Positions 3,486 to 53,181 of a stretch of DNA of 53,383 nucleotides are shown here, piece by piece. Source of the DNA: Escherichia phage FXie-2024a. A program made the position numbers and the translations under genes. The notes under the pieces are model-generated. The model was given only the letters and a program-made list of their open reading frames with translations, ran no database searches and had not been told where the DNA came from. Each line of letters begins with the position of its first letter. Position 1 is the stretch's first letter. The DNA lies in sequence record PP107930.1. One strand, given 5' to 3'.

Positions 3486-4868
3486 CTATAAAGTTGAAAC
3501 TTGCTCATCTGTCAGTGCAGAGTTCCACATTCTGAACGAGCGTAGTGCAAACTCGGAGCTTGTGGCACTCAACAGTGACCAAGCTGATAAAGTAGGTCTG
3601 CGGTTATTTATACCTAATGCTGGCAAAGTATGTTGGATAAGCAGAACACCATCTATGAATATTCTTGCATAACCCCCGGATACAACTACACAGACCCTAA
3701 ACCACTTCCCTGTTCCCGGGGCACCAATCACCTTGTAAGTGTTGTTCAATACACCGTCTTGCCTTCTGTATCGCAGAACTATTCCACCATCGTAGCAAAC
3801 CAAAACCTTAAGAACTTCCATACCAAATCCGCACTGCCAGTTCCCATCTGCTGTTCCAGTGTGTGAGATACGCTGAAAGTCTGCACAAATGGTAAATTTA
3901 CCATTTGTGTCTGCTATCTGAGTGTTATTGTACCAGTTAAACCCGTTGCCTGTGGGGTTCGCATAGGACAGCACCCCACCCAAAGCTTCGTTATAATTTG
4001 GTACGTGATCGAAAGAGTTAAACACGCCATTACCCCGAATAATGTTCAAAGATTTAATCAAGGACATTTCGTATGACGGAGGTACGTGTGCATAGTTTGG
4101 TTCTTGTGCAGCCTTCAAACCTGGGAAGGTAAGCTCTGTAACAATCTTAGACTTACTTGAAGTGGTTCCAGTCTCGGCAAATCCTGTTGTATCATTGATA
4201 CCTATCAGGTAGTTACCATTCTTCAACCACAATCCATCACCGCGCAGTATTTGAGCAGTCTTGGACTCGTTGAAGTATGCAGTTGGCATAGTCACCGGAC
4301 CAGTATATGTCCCGCCAGTAACAGGAACAGCACCAACCTGAACAGCAGTCAGTTTGTGTGGGTTGTTGTAATCTGTTACGTGGGCCTGTACAAGAGCACG
4401 GTAGCTTGCAACTAGTGAGTCCATTTCTGCTCGGTTATATGTTCCAACCTGTGCAGCAGTTACTTGGTGTGGGTTTGCTCGGTTTGCAATATGACTGTTA
4501 ATTGCAGATACAATAGAATCATAGTTTGCACGAGATACCTGAATGGCGCTCGGACTCCATTGAGATGGGTTGGCACTTGGTGCCAGAGTCTTGCTTGGGT
4601 TTGTTACAGTACAAACATAAATAGTTTTGTTTGTTTCGTCCCAAGCCAAACTGCCAACACCGTAAGAAACATCACCACCCCATTCGAAGATTCCACGCTC
4701 TGCCTGAGCAAGCATTGTGGTATCAACTTTGTATTGGAGATAGTTTAAAACTTGGTAGGTTGGTATTTCAGCAACCCAACCTTGGAGATACTTCGCATCT
4801 CCTGGGTCACGTCTGGCTACACTGTTATTTGAAGTCCATACGCGGTTTAGTTTAGGACGTAATGCCAT
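3486..4868 (-). CDS. Tail fiber protein
   Basis: 460 aa; fiber-type repeats (NPHQVTAAQVG, NPHKLTAVQVG, GGTYTGPVTM) shared with the adjacent 381-aa protein. Confidence 0.55.
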   Translation of the reverse strand: MALRPKLNRVWTSNNSVARRDPGDAKYLQGWVAEIPTYQVLNYLQYKVDTTMLAQAERGIFEWGGDVSYGVGSLAWDETNKTIYVCTVTNPSKTLAPSANPSQWSPSAIQVSRANYDSIVSAINSHIANRANPHQVTAAQVGTYNRAEMDSLVASYRALVQAHVTDYNNPHKLTAVQVGAVPVTGGTYTGPVTMPTAYFNESKTAQILRGDGLWLKNGNYLIGINDTTGFAETGTTSSKSKIVTELTFPGLKAAQEPNYAHVPPSYEMSLIKSLNIIRGNGVFNSFDHVPNYNEALGGVLSYANPTGNGFNWYNNTQIADTNGKFTICADFQRISHTGTADGNWQCGFGMEVLKVLVCYDGGIVLRYRRQDGVLNNTYKVIGAPGTGKWFRVCVVVSGGYARIFIDGVLLIQHTLPALGINNRRPTLSAWSLLSATSSEFALRSFRMWNSALTDEQVSTL

Positions 4869-31229: not shown

Positions 31230-31502
31230 TTAATCGACTTGCAACATTGCAAGACGGAAGTCATATCCAACTAATGCTTCGGACAGCTCTTCAATTGAAG
31301 TTGTTGCCGAGATTAAAGTTTGGAGGTTTTTAAATGTCTCATCGTTAAATGCTTGAGACTGTGTGTCGGACGAATAGAATACTTTGTCCTTAATCTTTTC
31401 AAGGAACGCCATTACAGCGTCCTTTGCGAGAACTTCGGAATCGGTAGCAAACATATGGTGCTCTGATTCCTGCACATCAAAAATAGAATATACAGTTTGC
31501 AT
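31230..31502 (-). CDS. Hypothetical protein
   Basis: 90 aa ORF directly downstream of the DNA polymerase gene. Confidence 0.4.
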   Translation of the reverse strand: MQTVYSIFDVQESEHHMFATDSEVLAKDAVMAFLEKIKDKVFYSSDTQSQAFNDETFKNLQTLISATTSIEELSEALVGYDFRLAMLQVD

Positions 31503-37417: not shown

Positions 37418-37654
37418 TCACTTACGAACCCACTTTGAGAGCAACTCGTTATCGACATTGCTATCAGAACTGCTGCTAACTTCTTTCTGAACATGCGATT
37501 TAATCTCGATAGATTCTTTTAACGAATCGAATTGCTTCTCTTTGGCTTCCTGACGCTCCTCGGCTTTGCCTGAGCTTTTGCCTTTGAGGAACACTGCAAG
37601 GAGAATGCCCAATGCAGTCAAGACGCCAAGAAAGATTGACTTAAGCTGTTGCAT
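37418..37654 (-). CDS. Small membrane protein (N-terminal TM helix plus charged tail)
   Basis: 78 aa; hydrophobic IFLGVLTALGILLAVFL then a Lys/Glu-rich region. Confidence 0.45.
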   Translation of the reverse strand: MQQLKSIFLGVLTALGILLAVFLKGKSSGKAEERQEAKEKQFDSLKESIEIKSHVQKEVSSSSDSNVDNELLSKWVRK

Positions 37655-37661
37655 GAATCAC

Positions 37662-37802
37662 CTTAGATGGCGCACGCACCACTTGAGCAGTCGTTATCAC
37701 CAGCACCAGGAACGATTGCTTCTTCGTCCTGCTTCTTCTTGAGTTCTTCAATTGCTTCTTCGGCAGCACCGAAGTCCAAATTGTCTAATGCATCAAAATC
37801 CA
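37662..37802 (-). CDS. Unlisted 46-aa acidic peptide
   Basis: ATG at 37800..37802 to TAA at 37662..37664; MDFDALDNLDFGAAEEAIEELKKK...DCSSGACAI; between the tRNA-like element and the membrane-protein gene. Confidence 0.25.
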
Positions 37803-37831
37803 TGAGGACTCCATGTTTGTTGTTGAGAGTG

Positions 37832-37924
37832 GCGGACGAGGTTGGGTTCGAACCAACGACACATCTGTCTTACAGATTGCTCTACCTGACTAAGCTCTGG
37901 AGCAGACCTTCTGAGCTACTCGTC
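37832..37924 (-). tRNA. tRNA-like element with non-canonical D region
   Basis: 7-bp acceptor pairing (GGACGAG / CTCGTCC), canonical T arm GTTGG-TTCGAAC-CCAAC, discriminator G and encoded CCA. About 93 nt; D and anticodon arms do not fold canonically. Confidence 0.4.
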
Positions 37925-38305
37925 CAGAATAAGGTGGGGGGTTTTGGTAACGCAGGTTTTCCCAAACTGCGAGGCTTGTAGCAAGACAGTCGCATTACTT
38001 TGCGAATGCCAGCAGGATTGATGGTCCGACCGTCTTTGCTTAGGCAACCTGATTTAATCTACCTTTGTAGATACCATCGGTTAGAGTAGTTTATTTCCAT
38101 GCTCAGGGCAATTCACTTATGCGAATTAGGTTACGCAGTGCAGCTTCGAAGTCACTGCCACAGGTTTGAGGTTTCCTGTGTGGAGGGAAATCCAGAGGAG
38201 CACTTCCTCAAGGAGTTACGTTTCATATTGGCATAGCTTCTCACACTAAACCAATTGAAGACATTCCAGTGTGCTCGTCCGTCCTCTAGAAATATCCAAC
38301 TGCAT

Positions 38306-38465
38306 AATTAAGTTTGTACTCTGTCACATCCCCACGCGCACTGAGGGACTTAAGCCTGCATTGCATCGCAGAATACAAATTGATAATTAAGTTTGTACTC
38401 TGTCACACTGCATCGCCAAGATGTGCAGCCTAAGGTTATCGGTTCATCGCAGAATACAAATTAAT
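38306..38465 (-). repeat. Tandem pair of ~80-bp imperfect palindromic elements
   Basis: Two adjacent units with conserved ends (AAGTTTGTACTCTGTCACA ... CATCGCAGAATACAAATT) that are inverted repeats of each other, enclosing different ~45-nt cores. Confidence 0.5.
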
Positions 38466-38635
38466 TATTGCTCCGATTTATTAATCACATCTCGAAGCCA
38501 CAATGCGCCAAATTTGGTTACATGGGATTGGAAGACCACGGAGAGAACTTAAATCTAATTAAGCTGCAACTCGCATTTCAGAATCATTTGCACTTGTGTT
38601 TAGTGTTTAAAACAGTCGCATAATAACGAAATGAA

Positions 38636-38691
38636 AACTACTTCAATAACACCACTCGTAAGTAATGTTATTGAAGCCCTCTCGTAAGAGG
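38636..38691 (-). terminator. Putative intrinsic terminator (double hairpin)
   Basis: Immediately after the stop of the 38703..39041 gene: CCTCT-TACG-AGAGG hairpin, then a 10-bp stem CTTCAATAAC / GTTATTGAAG, then a U-rich tract. Confidence 0.4.
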
Positions 38692-38702
38692 ACTCCATTG
38701 TC

Positions 38703-39041
38703 TTAGAATACCGGAGCTTCTTCAACAGCAGCTTCGGCAGCTTCGGCAACACTTGCGTCAGCAACTTTAGCTTCTTTCGGAGTGTCGAACGCAACACGTT
38801 CAACTTCAGGACAACCAGCTTCAACCCACGGCAGGTAGAATGCCAGGAAGGATGCAACGGTGTTGCTCTGCATGGAGCGAGAACGGTCAACCAGTTTCAT
38901 GGTGTTAGCAAATGCTTCAACAGCTGCGTCGATTTTAGCACCGTTTTCCAGTTTAAAATCGTGTGCGTTACATTCTGCTTCGCTCAGGAACAGGGAACCA
39001 TCGTTAGCTTCGTACTGGGTTACGGTTACAATCTTAGCCAT
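38703..39041 (-). CDS. Hypothetical acidic protein
   Basis: 113 aa from MAKIVTV (ATG 39039..39041) with AAGGT ribosome-binding site; the annotated longer start overlaps an upstream motif. Confidence 0.45.
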   Translation of the reverse strand: MAKIVTVTQYEANDGSLFLSEAECNAHDFKLENGAKIDAAVEAFANTMKLVDRSRSMQSNTVASFLAFYLPWVEAGCPEVERVAFDTPKEAKVADASVAEAAEAAVEEAPVF

Positions 39042-39116
39042 TTGTATATACCTTATATTAAATAGTTTTGCACGCCACGGTGACGTGACTGTAGATAGAT
39101 TAAAGAGCCTTTCTCT

Positions 39117-39134
39117 TTTCACATCCAATTAATG
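39117..39134 (-). promoter_or_regulatory. Copy of recurrent 18-bp motif, about 76 nt upstream of the 38703..39041 gene
   Basis: Plus strand TTCACATCCAATTAATGT. Confidence 0.35.
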
Positions 39135-39164
39135 TGTCAGGACTGCTCTGATTTAACAAACAAC

Positions 39165-39839
39165 TCAATACATATTGAATCGTTCGATTGATTTAATCAC
39201 TAAATCCTTTGTCTCAGCGACAGTGAGTTCAGTTGTAATCGAGTCGTCAATGCCCTCGATTTGAATTGCAACAAAACGTCCCACACCTGTTACAGTCATG
39301 CGGTTGGTTCGGTCACGGATAATCACACCAGCTTCACCCTCAACAGCACGAAGCAGTTTCCAACGAAGTGTGCGATTCGGCACAGCAAAGCCCTTTGTCG
39401 AGAACAACTCTTTCATGAGTTCCCCAAGGCAAACAGCTTCAATGTTCATTCCTCTTCCAACTAATTCTTGCAACAGGCACAATGTCAACATTTCTAAATT
39501 GTTGAAGTGTCCAGCGCGCTCCAGATTAAAGAACTCTGGAGGAACAGTTGAGCGGGATTTAACAGCTTGCTTATATGCACGTTCTTCTTCTTGTGCAGCA
39601 AGCATGAGCATCTCTGGTTTGATGTATTTCATCGCAGAGAAGCCAGCGCGAGTGGCTTTAATGATTCGGCAAGCCTCTTTCATTTTGTAGCGTTGCCACT
39701 CACCGCGTTTAGATTCTGGATTAAAATGGACCCACATGATGATAACATCTTCCTTGGCAAGATAGACGGCATCATTATCATTGAGCCACTGCTTGCACGT
39801 AGAAAGTGCAATTTCTTTGTCATCATCATGATAAGACAT
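39165..39839 (-). CDS. Hypothetical protein
   Basis: 224 aa early ORF. Confidence 0.45.
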   Translation of the reverse strand: MSYHDDDKEIALSTCKQWLNDNDAVYLAKEDVIIMWVHFNPESKRGEWQRYKMKEACRIIKATRAGFSAMKYIKPEMLMLAAQEEERAYKQAVKSRSTVPPEFFNLERAGHFNNLEMLTLCLLQELVGRGMNIEAVCLGELMKELFSTKGFAVPNRTLRWKLLRAVEGEAGVIIRDRTNRMTVTGVGRFVAIQIEGIDDSITTELTVAETKDLVIKSIERFNMY

Positions 39840-40666: not shown

Positions 40667-41310
40667 AGGAACTCTCCAATTTTCGATTCGGTGTTTGTGA
40701 CTTCTCTTCTCATCTTTTGGCCTATGAAACAGGCCACAGAGTAGCGCAGGAAGGCCGAAAATCGGACCACTGCCTACCGTTTGTGTCAATTCTGGATAAC
40801 TGCATTGGCGAAGGGTTACTCCCGTTAGGGTGCGACCCGCGCATCATAACTGCATAGCAGTCTGGCAAGCTGCGGAGGTCACAGAGGCTTTGCAACCCTT
40901 CCCAATACATTCACCCAACCTACCCGCTTTGGTATAGCTGGCGGCGCGGTTTTGTGCGGATTATGCCACTCTAAGCCCTGTTTGCCCGACTTCCTCGGAG
41001 CACCAGCAGCTTGTGGCACAAACCTATTTTCGAATGACTAACATAAGCATGAGGCACAACCCTCTAATTATTCAGCCCTAACAGCTTGCTTATTCAGTAC
41101 CAATTCATCCCAATACATCGCTATAACAAGTGAACAGCTTTCTGCGAAGAAGTATTCCGGCCCTTTGGCCTATGTTAAAAGTTAAATGTATGTGATGGAA
41201 ACATTCCATCGAAAAGAACTTTGTAGAACGAATCGAACGTTCTCACACGCCCTGGTACCAGACGGACTACCTAGTTACAAAGTTCTTATCTGATGTTGTT
41301 TCAATTCCAA

Positions 41311-41487
41311 CTAATGTCGAATGTCTTTCTTGCAAACAGGACAAGTGATAAATCTATATGCGAAATATCCTCGGTCATTCTTCCCTGTGTATATCTTTAA
41401 GTCTGAGAATTCATAAGACACAACAGAAGCACATAACCGACATTGGCGTGTGAAGGTTACTGTATCTTTTTCCAGAACTTTAATCAT
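41311..41487 (-). CDS. Zinc-ribbon protein
   Basis: 58 aa from MIKVLEKD; CRLC...CPVC; ribosome-binding GGAG lies inside the upstream 18-bp motif copy. Confidence 0.45.
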   Translation of the reverse strand: MIKVLEKDTVTFTRQCRLCASVVSYEFSDLKIYTGKNDRGYFAYRFITCPVCKKDIRH

Positions 41488-49779: not shown

Positions 49780-50650
49780 AATCTGTCACAGAATTTACAG
49801 AGATTTGGTCTTATTCACATGCAACTAATGATAAATGAACATGCTTAATTGCAACTAATTCATCTGCCAAATAGACGAATTTTGTCACAATCAAACATGC
49901 ATCATTAATTATAGGTTTACACCTATCTTGGAATGTATTTGGCACATCAAGAAGTGGCGCAATAGGTACGGAAAACCGACCATGTACAGCATAATAAAAC
50001 CAATTAAATAAAGGGTTTTATCCCAATATTGTCACAATATTTACATGCGATGATAAAGCCTTCGCTTGGCTGGAAGCCAGTATTCATGCGGGTTGCAAGA
50101 ATATTGGGTCATTGCTGATACAGCTATTACATGCGAAATTGGCACAAATACTGTTACAAAATTAACATGCCAGATTGGCAGACGATTGTATCTTCGAGGT
50201 GATTAGTCCTCTAACAATTCTGCCACATTCCAACATGCCAATTTGTAGCAATATTTACATGCCATACTGCGACGCAATTGTCACAATATTTGTTGCTCAA
50301 AATCGGGGCGGCTTCTGCGTGCAAACGAGAGGCTTAGTCCGACTTCTTCTCTTCTTTCGATTTCTGATTGAAAGAAAGAAGCATGTCCAAAAGTTCCAAT
50401 ATTACCAAAGTTATCTCCCGGCTTGTGGGTGGGCCTTTATAATAGGAGATGGAGCAATATTGTCGCAATTGAACATGCCATAGGTGAAGTACAAGTTTCG
50501 GATAGATATTCCTACTCTGTGTCATGGTTGCTGGAACTATAGGTGGCCTACCTAGGGAGTTCAATGATTGCCACATCATTACAACACTGTAACTCAAAGC
50601 TGACATGCTGAATGTTTCTAGAATGATTCAACATTACATGCGGAATATTT
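49780..50650. repeat. Iteron-like repeat cluster (candidate origin or promoter array)
   Basis: ORF-free ~0.9 kb with about 10 to 12 copies of a 18-19 bp motif near TTGTCACAATATTTACATGC (examples 49882..49900, 50029..50048, 50151..50170, 50221..50238, 50243..50262, 50460..50478). Confidence 0.55.
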
Positions 50651-52950: not shown

Positions 52951-53006
52951 TTGTAAGTCTCCAAGATTGTGTATGATTTGAATGAAACGGATTATAATAG
53001 CGTAGC

Positions 53007-53024
53007 CATTACACAATTCACGTC
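53007..53024 (-). promoter_or_regulatory. Copy of recurrent 18-bp motif, about 60 nt upstream of the RNA polymerase ATG
   Basis: Plus strand TTCACGTCCAACTAATAT; family consensus TTCACATCCAACTAATGT. Confidence 0.35.
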
Positions 53025-53181
53025 CAACTAATATCACAAACCTGTGCCATTGTTACAACAGCACGGAGACTTTGACCTTGACTCATAAGCGAAGCGCCTA
53101 ACTTGGTGTTGATTGAAAGCCGATAGGCTGTAGGAAAAAGTTGGGGTAGGGACCGTATTTTAAGTCCGATAGGACGTTGGG

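What the first reader, a model, noticed from the sequence alone, without database searches (positions are those of the whole stretch)
38306..38465. Two tandem ~80-bp palindromic elements in the ORF-poor block beside the tRNA-like gene
Each unit has the same ends, which are inverted repeats of one another (11-bp stem allowing one G-U pair), around a different ~45-nt core. This looks like paired hairpin RNAs, for example processing sites or small structured RNAs, or a paired operator. The block sits between the early genes and the replication module.
Basis: seen in the sequence. Interest (0 to 1): 0.5.

Follow-up and report, generated by a model that had tools for sequence, protein, structure and literature searches.

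The report
Tandem structured RNA hairpin cassettes
Two back-to-back ~85-nt hairpin RNAs with the same long closing stem but different interiors sit in an untranslated stretch upstream of a tRNA gene in a phiEcoM-GJ1-like coliphage; they are real, conserved and undescribed, and most likely mark sites where the long phage transcript is cut, but their function has not been shown.

Summary
Window 38304-38470 holds two tandem units. Each has arms AAUAAUUAAUUUGUAUUCUG / CAGAGUACAAACUUAAUUAU around a different 45- or 47-nt core.

The window is essentially a whole Carltongylesvirus genome (Chaseviridae), with its genes and promoter-like motifs on the minus strand. The units lie in a ~780-nt ORF-free stretch between a gp29 homologue and an odd tRNA.

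Relatives usually carry one unit. Three core types exist, and copy number varies between one and two.

In 17 distinct units the arms and an inner hairpin covary: 6 pairs have double changes against 2.1 in shuffles (0/500). All wobble positions are G·U on the minus strand, 9 helix columns against 0 genuine A·C. The structure is therefore read in the transcript, not in duplex DNA.

There is no Rfam match, no host or plasmid copy, no promoter match and no terminator tail.

My best reading is a set of exchangeable structured-RNA modules. Their ~19-bp A/U-rich closing helix, about 23 stacked positions, would be a double-strand-specific (RNase III-type) processing stem in the gp29-tRNA-replication transcript. 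The RNA structure is well supported. The processing step is inferred, and the role of the cores is unknown. This is a modestly novel, unannotated RNA motif.

The parts
38304..38470 (-). Whole array of two stem-closed RNA units. They are transcribed right to left, so the core-2 unit comes first on the RNA.
38383..38470 (-). Unit A, upstream on the RNA, core-2 type. Its only other occurrence in the collections searched is as the sole unit of phage BSBP01.
   Evidence: (z = -3.5)
38450..38470 (-). Unit A 5' arm of closing helix P1 (RNA CAAUAAUUAAUUUGUAUUCUG)
38403..38449 (-). Unit A core (47 nt), including the inner hairpin P3 at 38407-38429 (GCUGCA / UGCAGU, 11-nt loop)
38383..38402 (-). Unit A 3' arm of P1. 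Its outer 7 nt (38383-38389) double as the outer 5' arm of unit B.
38304..38389 (-). Unit B, downstream on the RNA, core-1 type, the common type in relatives
   Evidence: 104 bits
38369..38389 (-). Unit B 5' arm of P1. The outer part is weakened by the tandem junction (C.A and U.U).
38324..38368 (-). Unit B core (45 nt), with mini-helix P2 and inner hairpin P3 at 38328-38349 (GUCCCU / GGGGAU, 10-nt loop)
38304..38323 (-). Unit B 3' arm of P1 (RNA CAGAGUACAAACUUAAUUAU)
38640..38677 (-). Context: 17-bp hairpin plus U-rich tail just after gp29 (terminator-like). It belongs to a second stem-closed cassette family (UUCAAU...AUUGAAG) whose interior is 4 nt here and roughly 45-65 nt in relatives.
37833..37925 (-). 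Context: tRNA with a 24-nt D-loop insertion, at the downstream end of the same ORF-free stretch
39119..39135 (-). Context: nearest upstream copy of the phage promoter-like motif ACATTAATTGGATGTGA. None lies between it and the units.
38703..39041 (-). Context: gp29 homologue (phrog_17419, unknown function), the last coding gene before the ORF-free stretch

Best explanation
Each unit is a structured RNA module read on the minus (transcribed) strand.

A ~19-bp A/U-rich closing helix (11 bp, a bulged C, then 8 bp) continues through a 2x2 internal loop and two more pairs. It then stacks on a 6-bp hairpin with a 10-12-nt loop. A ~15-nt side loop sits on the 5' strand.

The units are co-transcribed with gp29, the tRNA and the downstream replication genes, because no promoter-like site lies between them.

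I infer that the closing helix is cut by a double-strand-specific endoribonuclease, most likely host RNase III. The helix has about 23 stacked positions, with its only internal G-C pair roughly at the centre. Cutting would separate the gp29 message from the tRNA-bearing RNA and release a ~60-nt hairpin RNA from each unit. This is the same logic as the RNase III sites that punctuate T7 transcripts (established knowledge, not tested here).

The arms are constant and the cores interchangeable. Three core types occur, in one or two copies per phage. The tandem pair in this window is best explained as a core-2 cassette and a core-1 cassette joined by recombination within the shared AT-rich arms.

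Shown: the repeat anatomy, its conservation, RNA-level covariation, strand polarity and the cassette-like variation. Inferred: transcription through the element, RNase III cleavage, and any role of the cores. The stated confidence is for the processing mechanism; for 'structured RNA on the minus strand' alone I would give about 0.85.
For: Identity and context: (GJ1-like phage; every annotated gene in the GJ1 record lies on one strand, and the matching window genes are on the minus strand).

Anatomy.

Covariation: one search gives 95.7% of cells paired and 6 pairs with double changes against 2.1 +/- 1.0 in shuffles (0/500). Slid controls pair only 31-42% of cells. RNAalifold recovers the same helices unaided.

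Specific compensations: TH26 in P1; TH25, TH37 and L011 in P3 (GUCCUA/UAGGAU); C-G to U-A in P2.

Strand: 60 G.U cells against 3 A.C cells, and 9 helix columns with G.U against none with a genuine A.C. The two single-sided changes in the 11-bp stem both give wobble pairs (Pel53 U.G, Mangalitsa G.U).

No promoter inside the ORF-free stretch.

Cassette behaviour.

Compatibility with RNase III: the enzyme accommodates about 22 bp. In vivo double-cut sites lie a median of 58 nt apart, and the pairs between the cuts are usually G-C (PMC6212723). Here the central G-C pair, alignment columns 14/77, has its two strands about 62 nt apart.

Other long closing stems of about 15-21 bp around roughly 45-65-nt interiors occur in the same ORF-free stretch and in other Chaseviridae.
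Against: No transcript or cleavage data exist for any Carltongylesvirus, so both transcription and cleavage are inferred.

RNase III needs no sequence conservation. A processing-only role therefore does not explain why the inner hairpin covaries, or why CGAUG, CUUARG and GUGA are kept in two core types.

The fold of unit B alone is no better than its shuffles (z = -0.3).

The relatives are close, so most stem columns never vary (11 of 19 in P1). The double changes in P1's 11-bp inner stem come from a single lineage, TH26.

Concerted evolution of DNA inverted repeats could mimic arm covariation. It would not, however, explain the retained U/C asymmetry or the inner-hairpin changes.

I could not score the helix against the published RNase III pair preferences, because the supplementary table is not held.
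Confidence: 0.45

Rival explanations
1. The cores are the functional part. They would be small trans-acting or decoy RNAs, for example regulators of host or competitor-phage RNAs or sponges for a host nuclease or defence protein. The constant stem would serve only as a scaffold or release signal. This reading is compatible with processing but places the function in the cargo.
For: The inner hairpin and junction nucleotides are conserved and covary. Three alternative cores occur at one locus in near-identical phages, and copy number varies. Core 3 carries an inverted copy of the core-2 hairpin 5' strand and loop, which would give at least 10 nt of perfect complementarity between the two RNAs (10-nt perfect match, significant alignment, 0/300 shuffles).
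Against: No complementarity to the phage's own transcripts exceeds that of shuffled cores. There is no detectable match to E. coli genomes or plasmids, although short targets are below what BLAST can detect. No Rfam family matches, CRISPR repeat families included. Nothing shows that the RNAs are stable.
Confidence: 0.2
2. The units act as RNA structure without cleavage. They could be barriers to exonucleases that stabilise the upstream gp29 message, or pause or termination/attenuation signals for the phage or host polymerase.
For: The neighbouring hairpin at 38640-38677 is terminator-like. In SA91KD, a small hairpin immediately upstream of the unit, overlapping the start of its 5' arm, was annotated as a terminator by WebGeSTer. 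Long stems are common in this ORF-free stretch.
Against: The terminator scan finds nothing at the units. The outer stem is pure A/U and no U-tract follows it. In the GJ1 record no annotated promoter lies between the one upstream of gp29 and one inside gp38, so the replication genes depend on transcription passing through this region and strong termination here is unlikely.
Confidence: 0.15
3. This is a DNA-level element. The inverted repeats would be protein-binding half-sites (operator), part of a replication origin, or targets or hot spots for recombination or homing endonucleases. The RNA fold would be incidental.
For: The arms are AT-rich palindromes lying between the early and replication modules. 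Indel breakpoints between phages fall at the arms. This ORF-free stretch accepts inserted genes: an immunity gene in Mangalitsa and an HNH endonuclease in Pel53. An unrelated viral contig shows iteron-like TTTGTAAT arrays.
Against: All imperfections in the helices are G.U on the transcribed strand, which means C.A on the other strand (9 columns against 0). Covariation extends to an inner hairpin and a 2-bp helix that are not part of the palindrome. The motif occurs nowhere else in the genome. There is no GC-skew inflection here and no promoter motif.
Confidence: 0.1
4. The tandem pair is a neutral by-product. Palindrome-mediated unequal recombination duplicated a hairpin, and neither the second copy nor the cores have a function.
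For: Most relatives manage with one unit. Neighbouring modules of this ORF-free stretch are freely lost in SA91KD, BSBP01 and TH26. The units share arm sequence at the junction.
Against: At least one unit is present in all 45 related records. Structure-preserving substitutions indicate purifying selection on the fold. The second copy is not a duplicate but a different, independently occurring core type.
Confidence: 0.1

Closest known systems
RNase III processing signals of phage T7/T3 transcripts (R0.3 ... R18.5); from established knowledge, not re-examined here
   Same: Both occur in a phage with a single-subunit T7-like RNA polymerase and long one-strand polycistronic transcripts. Both are irregular long hairpins placed between cistrons. 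The helix length is about two turns. The strands at the helix centre are about 62 nt apart, which falls within the range of E. coli in-vivo RNase III targets (PMC6212723).
   Different: There is no sequence similarity and no Rfam model to test against. Here the closing stem is one uninterrupted ~19-bp helix with a branched, variable interior. The units occur as interchangeable cassettes and in tandem. Cleavage has not been demonstrated.
Intervening sequences (IVS) of enterobacterial 23S rRNA helices 25/45, excised by RNase III (from memory)
   Same: Both have a long conserved stem with a variable distal part, replacing what is elsewhere a short loop. Presence or absence and type vary between close relatives.
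   Different: IVS lie inside rRNA genes. These units lie in a phage intergenic leader upstream of a tRNA. There is no sequence relation.
Stable RNAs of unknown function co-transcribed with tRNAs in the phage T4 tRNA cluster (species 1 and 2; from memory)
   Same: Both are small structured non-coding RNAs encoded next to phage tRNA genes, in one precursor that must be processed.
   Different: The T4 RNAs are tRNA-like at their ends and are single genes. These units have a 19-bp closing helix, no tRNA features and a variable interior.
PeSL 'promoter-early stem-loop' cassettes that flank shuffled modules in T4-type phages (from memory)
   Same: Both are short conserved regulatory stem sequences that coincide with the breakpoints of module gain, loss and exchange between related phages.
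   Different: PeSLs are direct repeats that contain a sigma-70 promoter and flank protein genes. Here the repeats are inverted, contain no promoter and enclose 45-82 nt of non-coding RNA.
Large ornate RNAs found beside tRNAs in phages and prophages (GOLLD, ROOL)
   Same: Both involve an ORF-free, structure-rich RNA region adjacent to a tRNA in a phage genome.
   Different: No Rfam match appears at the gathering or the permissive threshold. This stretch is a string of independently gained and lost modules, not one large fold.

Membership tests
RNase III processing site (E. coli / T7 type) | About 20-22 bp of stacked double-stranded RNA | tested here: met
   P1 has 11 + 8 bp with one bulged C, followed by a 2x2 loop and 2 more pairs, giving about 23 positions. 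The required size is taken from PMC6212723.
RNase III processing site (E. coli / T7 type) | Paired positions between the two cuts, usually G-C; the two cuts tens of nt apart on the strand | tested here: inconclusive
   The only internal G-C pair of P1, alignment columns 14/77, lies near the centre with its strands about 62 nt apart; the published median is 58. The cut positions are unknown, and the pair-preference table was not available.
RNase III processing site (E. coli / T7 type) | rnc-dependent cleavage leaving 2-nt 3' overhangs | not testable with these tools
   No RNA-end data exist for this phage genus.
Intrinsic (rho-independent) terminator | G+C-rich stem followed directly by a U-tract | tested here: not met
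   The scan finds a site at 38677-38640 but none at the units. The outer stem is A/U only and is followed by GCAGUUGG or CAAUUUG.
Phage (GJ1-type) promoter | Match to ACATTAGTTGGATGTGA | tested here: not met
   Ten sites score 24-33 bits, all on the minus strand. The look-alike AGTTGGAT at 38294-38301 scores below 8 bits and is absent in SA91KD, BSBP01 and TH26.
Palindromic operator / duplex-DNA protein site | Symmetry that is equivalent on both strands | tested here: not met
   Imperfections are G.U on one strand only: 60 G.U cells against 3 A.C cells. Standard pairing is 96% on the minus strand against 84% on the plus strand. Protein binding itself is not testable here.
CRISPR mini-array / repeat-like anti-CRISPR RNA | Direct repeats matching a host CRISPR repeat family and flanking spacers | tested here: not met
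   No CRISPR-DR family matches the units even at E <= 10. The constant parts are inverted, not direct, and the resemblance to I-E and I-F repeats seen by eye does not survive the variants.
MITE / mobile palindromic element | Many dispersed copies with terminal inverted repeats in host or phage genomes | tested here: not met
   The element occupies one locus per phage. It has no match in E. coli genomes or plasmids. The ten bacterial-genome hits to one arm all lack the second arm.
tRNA or tRNA-like gene | Cloverleaf with T-arm and anticodon arm | tested here: not met
   ARAGORN finds none. The Rfam tRNA model hits only 37833-37925.
Type III toxin-antitoxin RNA repeats | Tandem direct repeats of one whole unit next to an endoribonuclease toxin gene | tested here: not met
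   Only the arms repeat and the cores differ. The neighbours are unknown-function or lysis genes with no matching family in PHROGs or Pfam.

The most novel reading that the evidence does not exclude
The locus would be an exchange site for small-RNA cassettes. A fixed, nuclease-recognised stem presents interchangeable ~45-82-nt RNAs that closely related phages swap, stack or flip. The cargoes would act in phage-host or phage-phage conflict. The complementarity of at least 10 nt between the core-2 loop and a core-3 hairpin would then be either an RNA-RNA interaction between co-infecting phages or the trace of cargo inversion between the arms.
Probability: 0.12. Interest if true: 0.7.

Novelty: new variant of a known kind. 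Interest (0 to 1): 0.4.

Why it matters
Carltongylesviruses are being isolated as biocontrol and therapy candidates, yet about 0.8-1.4 kb between gp29 and the tRNA is either left blank or filled with spurious 'hypothetical proteins'.

Showing that this stretch encodes structured RNAs on the transcribed strand corrects those annotations. It also gives concrete, testable processing sites for a phage family whose transcription signals are still called unidentified (PMC12842549).

If the stems are RNase III sites, the family extends the T7 paradigm of host-nuclease punctuation of phage transcripts to myoviruses. If the cores have their own activity, the constant-stem, variable-cargo layout would be a compact system for studying how phages exchange small RNAs.

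Tried and rejected
- **Known RNA families.** Rfam gave nothing for the units, either at gathering scores over the whole window or at E <= 10 over 37780-38720. The only real hit is the tRNA.
- **tRNA remnants.** ARAGORN finds none.
- **Promoter next to the element.** AGTTGGAT at 38294-38301 looked like the GJ1 promoter core. It fails a weight matrix built from the ten good sites and is deleted in three relatives.
- **Host origin or MITE.** There is no match in E. coli genomes or plasmids. Arm matches in bacterial genomes and most metagenome contigs are single chance arms.
- **Wider homologues.** A covariance model of the unit finds nothing in four more distant Chaseviridae loci. Two loose arm patterns against viral contigs returned almost only chance matches. 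The one tandem-looking case (L091/L095) is an unrelated array of TTTGTAAT iterons.
- **Antisense targets in the phage.** The longest complementarity of each core to minus-strand RNA is no better than for shuffled cores.
- **CRISPR-repeat mimicry.** This was considered by eye for both cores and dropped. No CRISPR-DR hit appears, and the resemblance is lost in the variants.
- **Replication origin.** There is no skew inflection.
- **Coding potential.** Minus-strand ORFs in the ORF-free stretch are 43 aa or shorter and are not conserved. GJ1 gp30 has no intact ORF at the corresponding position in this window.
- **RNase III pair-preference scoring.** The table is not held.
- **The original GJ1 paper.** It could not be read.
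- **Neighbouring proteins.** They give no functional clue.

Full report
**What the window is.**
The 921 bases around the finding match 78 phage records. The best matches are phiEcoM-GJ1 and its relatives at about 90% identity (Chaseviridae, genus Carltongylesvirus). In the GJ1 record every annotated gene lies on one strand, and the homologous window genes near the finding are on the minus strand.

The finding lies in a ~780-nt stretch with no conserved ORF. On one side is the gp29 homologue (38703-39041, minus strand). On the other is an unusual tRNA (37833-37925, minus strand).

**The observation.**
It is confirmed. AATTAAGTTTGTACTCTG occurs exactly twice in 53 kb, against 0.05 expected. Its 11-nt core TTTGTAYTCTG occurs four times with no mismatch, in alternating orientation at 38313, 38369, 38392 and 38450. 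Periods are 79-81 nt.

Read on the minus strand, each unit is 5'-(C)AAUAAUUAAUUUGUAUUCUG-core-CAGAGUACAAACUUAAUUAU-3'. The array therefore spans 38304-38470.

The single 'G-U' is a G.U only on the minus strand. On the plus strand the same position is a C.A mismatch.

**Comparison with relatives.**
Forty-five phage records contain the element. Nearly all have one unit with the 45-nt 'core 1'.
- BSBP01 has one unit with 'core 2', the 47-nt core of the window's upstream unit.
- Flopper, Bp7 and Bp10 have a core-1 unit followed by a unit with an unrelated 82-nt 'core 3'.
- The core-2 plus core-1 combination in this window was not seen elsewhere.

The arms are thus constant, while the interior and the copy number vary, like alleles of a cassette. 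Cores 1 and 2 share the junction nucleotides CGAUG and GUGA, a CUUARG motif, and a 6-bp hairpin with a 10-12-nt loop in the same position. Every stem position of that hairpin differs between the two core types.

Alignment of the whole intergenic region shows that it is built of modules that come and go, with breakpoints at hairpin arms. A second family, UUCAAU...AUUGAAG, is a plain 17-bp terminator-like hairpin in this window (38640-38677). In relatives the same stem encloses roughly 45-65 nt, sometimes in tandem.

**Is the fold real, and on which strand?**
I aligned 17 distinct units. The helices I proposed are paired in 95.7% of cells. Six pairs show changes on both sides, against 2.1 +/- 1.0 in shuffles (0 of 500). 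Sliding the partners drops pairing to 31-42%. RNAalifold, given no structure, returns the same closing helix, a two-pair extension (columns 24-67 and 25-66) and the inner hairpin.

The clearest cases are these:
- TH26 has arms UAUCUUG/CAAGGUA in place of UAUUCUG/CAGAGUA, which is two compensatory swaps.
- TH25, TH37 and L011 have the inner hairpin GUCCUA/UAGGAU in place of GUCCCU/GGGGAU.
- A C-G to U-A switch occurs in a 2-bp helix.

Every imperfection is a wobble on the minus strand. There are 60 G.U cells against 3 A.C cells, and those three come from misalignment of core 2 or from the tandem junction. Nine helix columns carry G.U and none carries a genuine A.C. The same pairs read on the plus strand would be 84% standard instead of 96%.

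This asymmetry, and covariation in helices that are not part of the palindrome, argue for an RNA made from the minus strand. They argue against a duplex-DNA site.

Caveats apply. The phages are close relatives and most columns never vary. The double changes in P1's 11-bp inner stem come from one lineage. Unit B folded alone is not better than its shuffles (z = -0.3; unit A z = -3.5).

**Is it transcribed?**
There are no RNA data for this genus. A motif annotated in the GJ1 record as a putative phage promoter (consensus ACATTAGTTGGATGTGA) occurs ten times in the window, always on the minus strand. A weight matrix built from these sites finds none between 39119-39135, upstream of gp29, and 31261-31277. 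The sigma-70 scan finds nothing in 37600-39300.

The tRNA and the replication genes therefore appear to depend on transcription that runs through the units. This is an inference.

**What it is not.**
- No Rfam family matches, at either threshold.
- It is not a tRNA.
- It is not a terminator: the stem is A/U-rich with no U-tract, and the scan finds none.
- It is not a promoter.
- It is not a host-derived or dispersed mobile element.
- It is not a CRISPR-like repeat.
- It is not an origin as judged by skew.
- It is not coding.
- The cores have no better antisense match in the phage than shuffled cores.

**Most likely mechanism.**
The constant part is a helix of about two turns. It has 19 bp, a 2x2 loop and 2 more pairs, giving ~23 stacked positions, and it then stacks on the inner hairpin. 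Its only internal G-C pair is near the middle, and the two strands there are ~62 nt apart.

E. coli RNase III accommodates ~22 bp. It cuts both strands with a 2-nt offset, prefers G-C between the cuts, and has a median of 58 nt between cuts in vivo (PMC6212723). T7, the archetype of phages with this kind of RNA polymerase, relies on RNase III to cut its polycistronic RNAs (established knowledge).

I therefore propose that the units are processing stems. They would separate the gp29 message from the tRNA-bearing RNA, and each would release a ~60-nt hairpin RNA. The tandem pair would arise by recombination within the shared AT-rich arms.

I put about 0.85 on 'structured RNA on the minus strand' and about 0.45 on the processing mechanism. 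What the cores do is unknown. Their conserved junctions and covarying hairpin suggest they are more than spacers, so a cargo function is the main rival and may coexist with processing.

**An unexplained detail.**
Core 3 contains UCGCCAAGAUUGGUGCA. This is the reverse complement of the 5' strand and loop of the core-2 hairpin (UGCAC..AUCUUGGCGA), and no shuffle in 300 scored as well. It could be an inversion of the cargo between the inverted arms, or a real RNA-RNA complementarity between cassettes carried by different phages. I could not tell which.

**Novelty and verdict.**
I found no description of the element. The ST32 paper does not mention it, the GJ1 paper could not be read, and the records either leave it blank or overlay small ORFs.

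In kind it is a phage intergenic processing-type hairpin, a known category. The constant-stem, variable-core, variable-copy layout is unusual. I rate it a new variant of a known kind, with interest 0.4.

Noticed in passing
window 37833-37925 (-): The tRNA has a 24-nt insertion in the D-loop (Rfam tRNA 39.2 bits; ARAGORN misses it). Its presumed anticodon triplet differs between near-identical phages: UCG (Arg) in most, AAG in this window and TH26, UAG in Bp7. SA91KD has a shorter insertion. ARAGORN instead reads the GJ1 and ST32 copies as a long-variable-arm tRNA-Leu(CAG). On that reading the variable triplet would sit in a variable-arm loop. Either way the identity of this tRNA is unsettled.
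   Followed up: partly
window 38640-38677 (-), and L010 3432-3521, L013 3420-3520, L014: There is a second stem-closed cassette family, UUCAAU...AUUGAAG followed by UAGUUUUC. Here it is a plain 17-bp hairpin with a UACG loop (terminator-like, with two U.G pairs on the minus strand). In relatives the same stem encloses roughly 45-65 nt, sometimes two units in tandem joined by UUAU.
   Followed up: partly
window 38046-38082 (-): A long hairpin, AACCGAUGGUAUCUAC-AAAG-GUAGAUUAAAUCAGGUU, lies upstream of the tRNA. It has several compensatory changes in L011 (UUCCAC/GUGGAA, AAU/AUU) and flopper. The whole gp29-tRNA gap looks like a string of structured RNAs.
   Followed up: partly
window 11334, 31261, 39119, 41301, 41489, 41629, 45731, 49815, 50668, 53018 (all -): There are ten copies of ACATTAGTTGGATGTGA-like sequence, all on the transcribed strand, against 0.26 expected. 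They correspond to the 'putative phage promoters' of the GJ1 record, while the ICTV profile states that Chaseviridae promoters are not yet identified.
   Followed up: partly
window 52951-53076, 49847-49962, 50018-50112, 41207-41294 (-): Other 88-126-nt structures with 15-23-nt inverted-repeat arms closing 50-80-nt interiors occur in the ORF-poor early region. One of them encloses a promoter-like motif (53018-53034), and another starts just downstream of one (41301-41317).
   Followed up: no
L014 2936-3060 and L041 (flopper, Bp7) versus window 38407-38429: Core 3 of the flopper and Bp7 cassette contains the reverse complement of the core-2 hairpin 5' strand and loop (17 aligned nt with a 2-nt gap, 0/300 shuffles). 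This is either an inversion or an inter-cassette complementarity.
   Followed up: partly
L010 about 4165-4500 (Mangalitsa); L052 1476-1916 (Pel53): Protein genes have been inserted into the same ORF-free stretch: a gene annotated 'superinfection immunity protein' directly after the unit in Mangalitsa, and an HNH endonuclease between gp29 and the unit in Pel53. Pel53 is recorded as a Staphylococcus hyicus phage although it is about 90% identical to these coliphages over the region compared.
   Followed up: no
window 38271-38552 (+); records of 2KOFFS, BSBP01, Ecp_YSF, ST32: Small plus-strand or minus-strand ORFs overlapping the units are annotated as hypothetical proteins in several relatives. 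They are not conserved across the unit-number variants and are probably annotation artefacts. GJ1 gp30 has no intact ORF at the corresponding position in this window.
   Followed up: partly
L091 556-800 (reverse strand), L095: An unrelated 47.6-kb viral contig carries about ten TTTGTAAT/ATTACAAA repeats in both orientations within 300 nt. It looks like an iteron or operator array and is not homologous to the finding.
   Followed up: no
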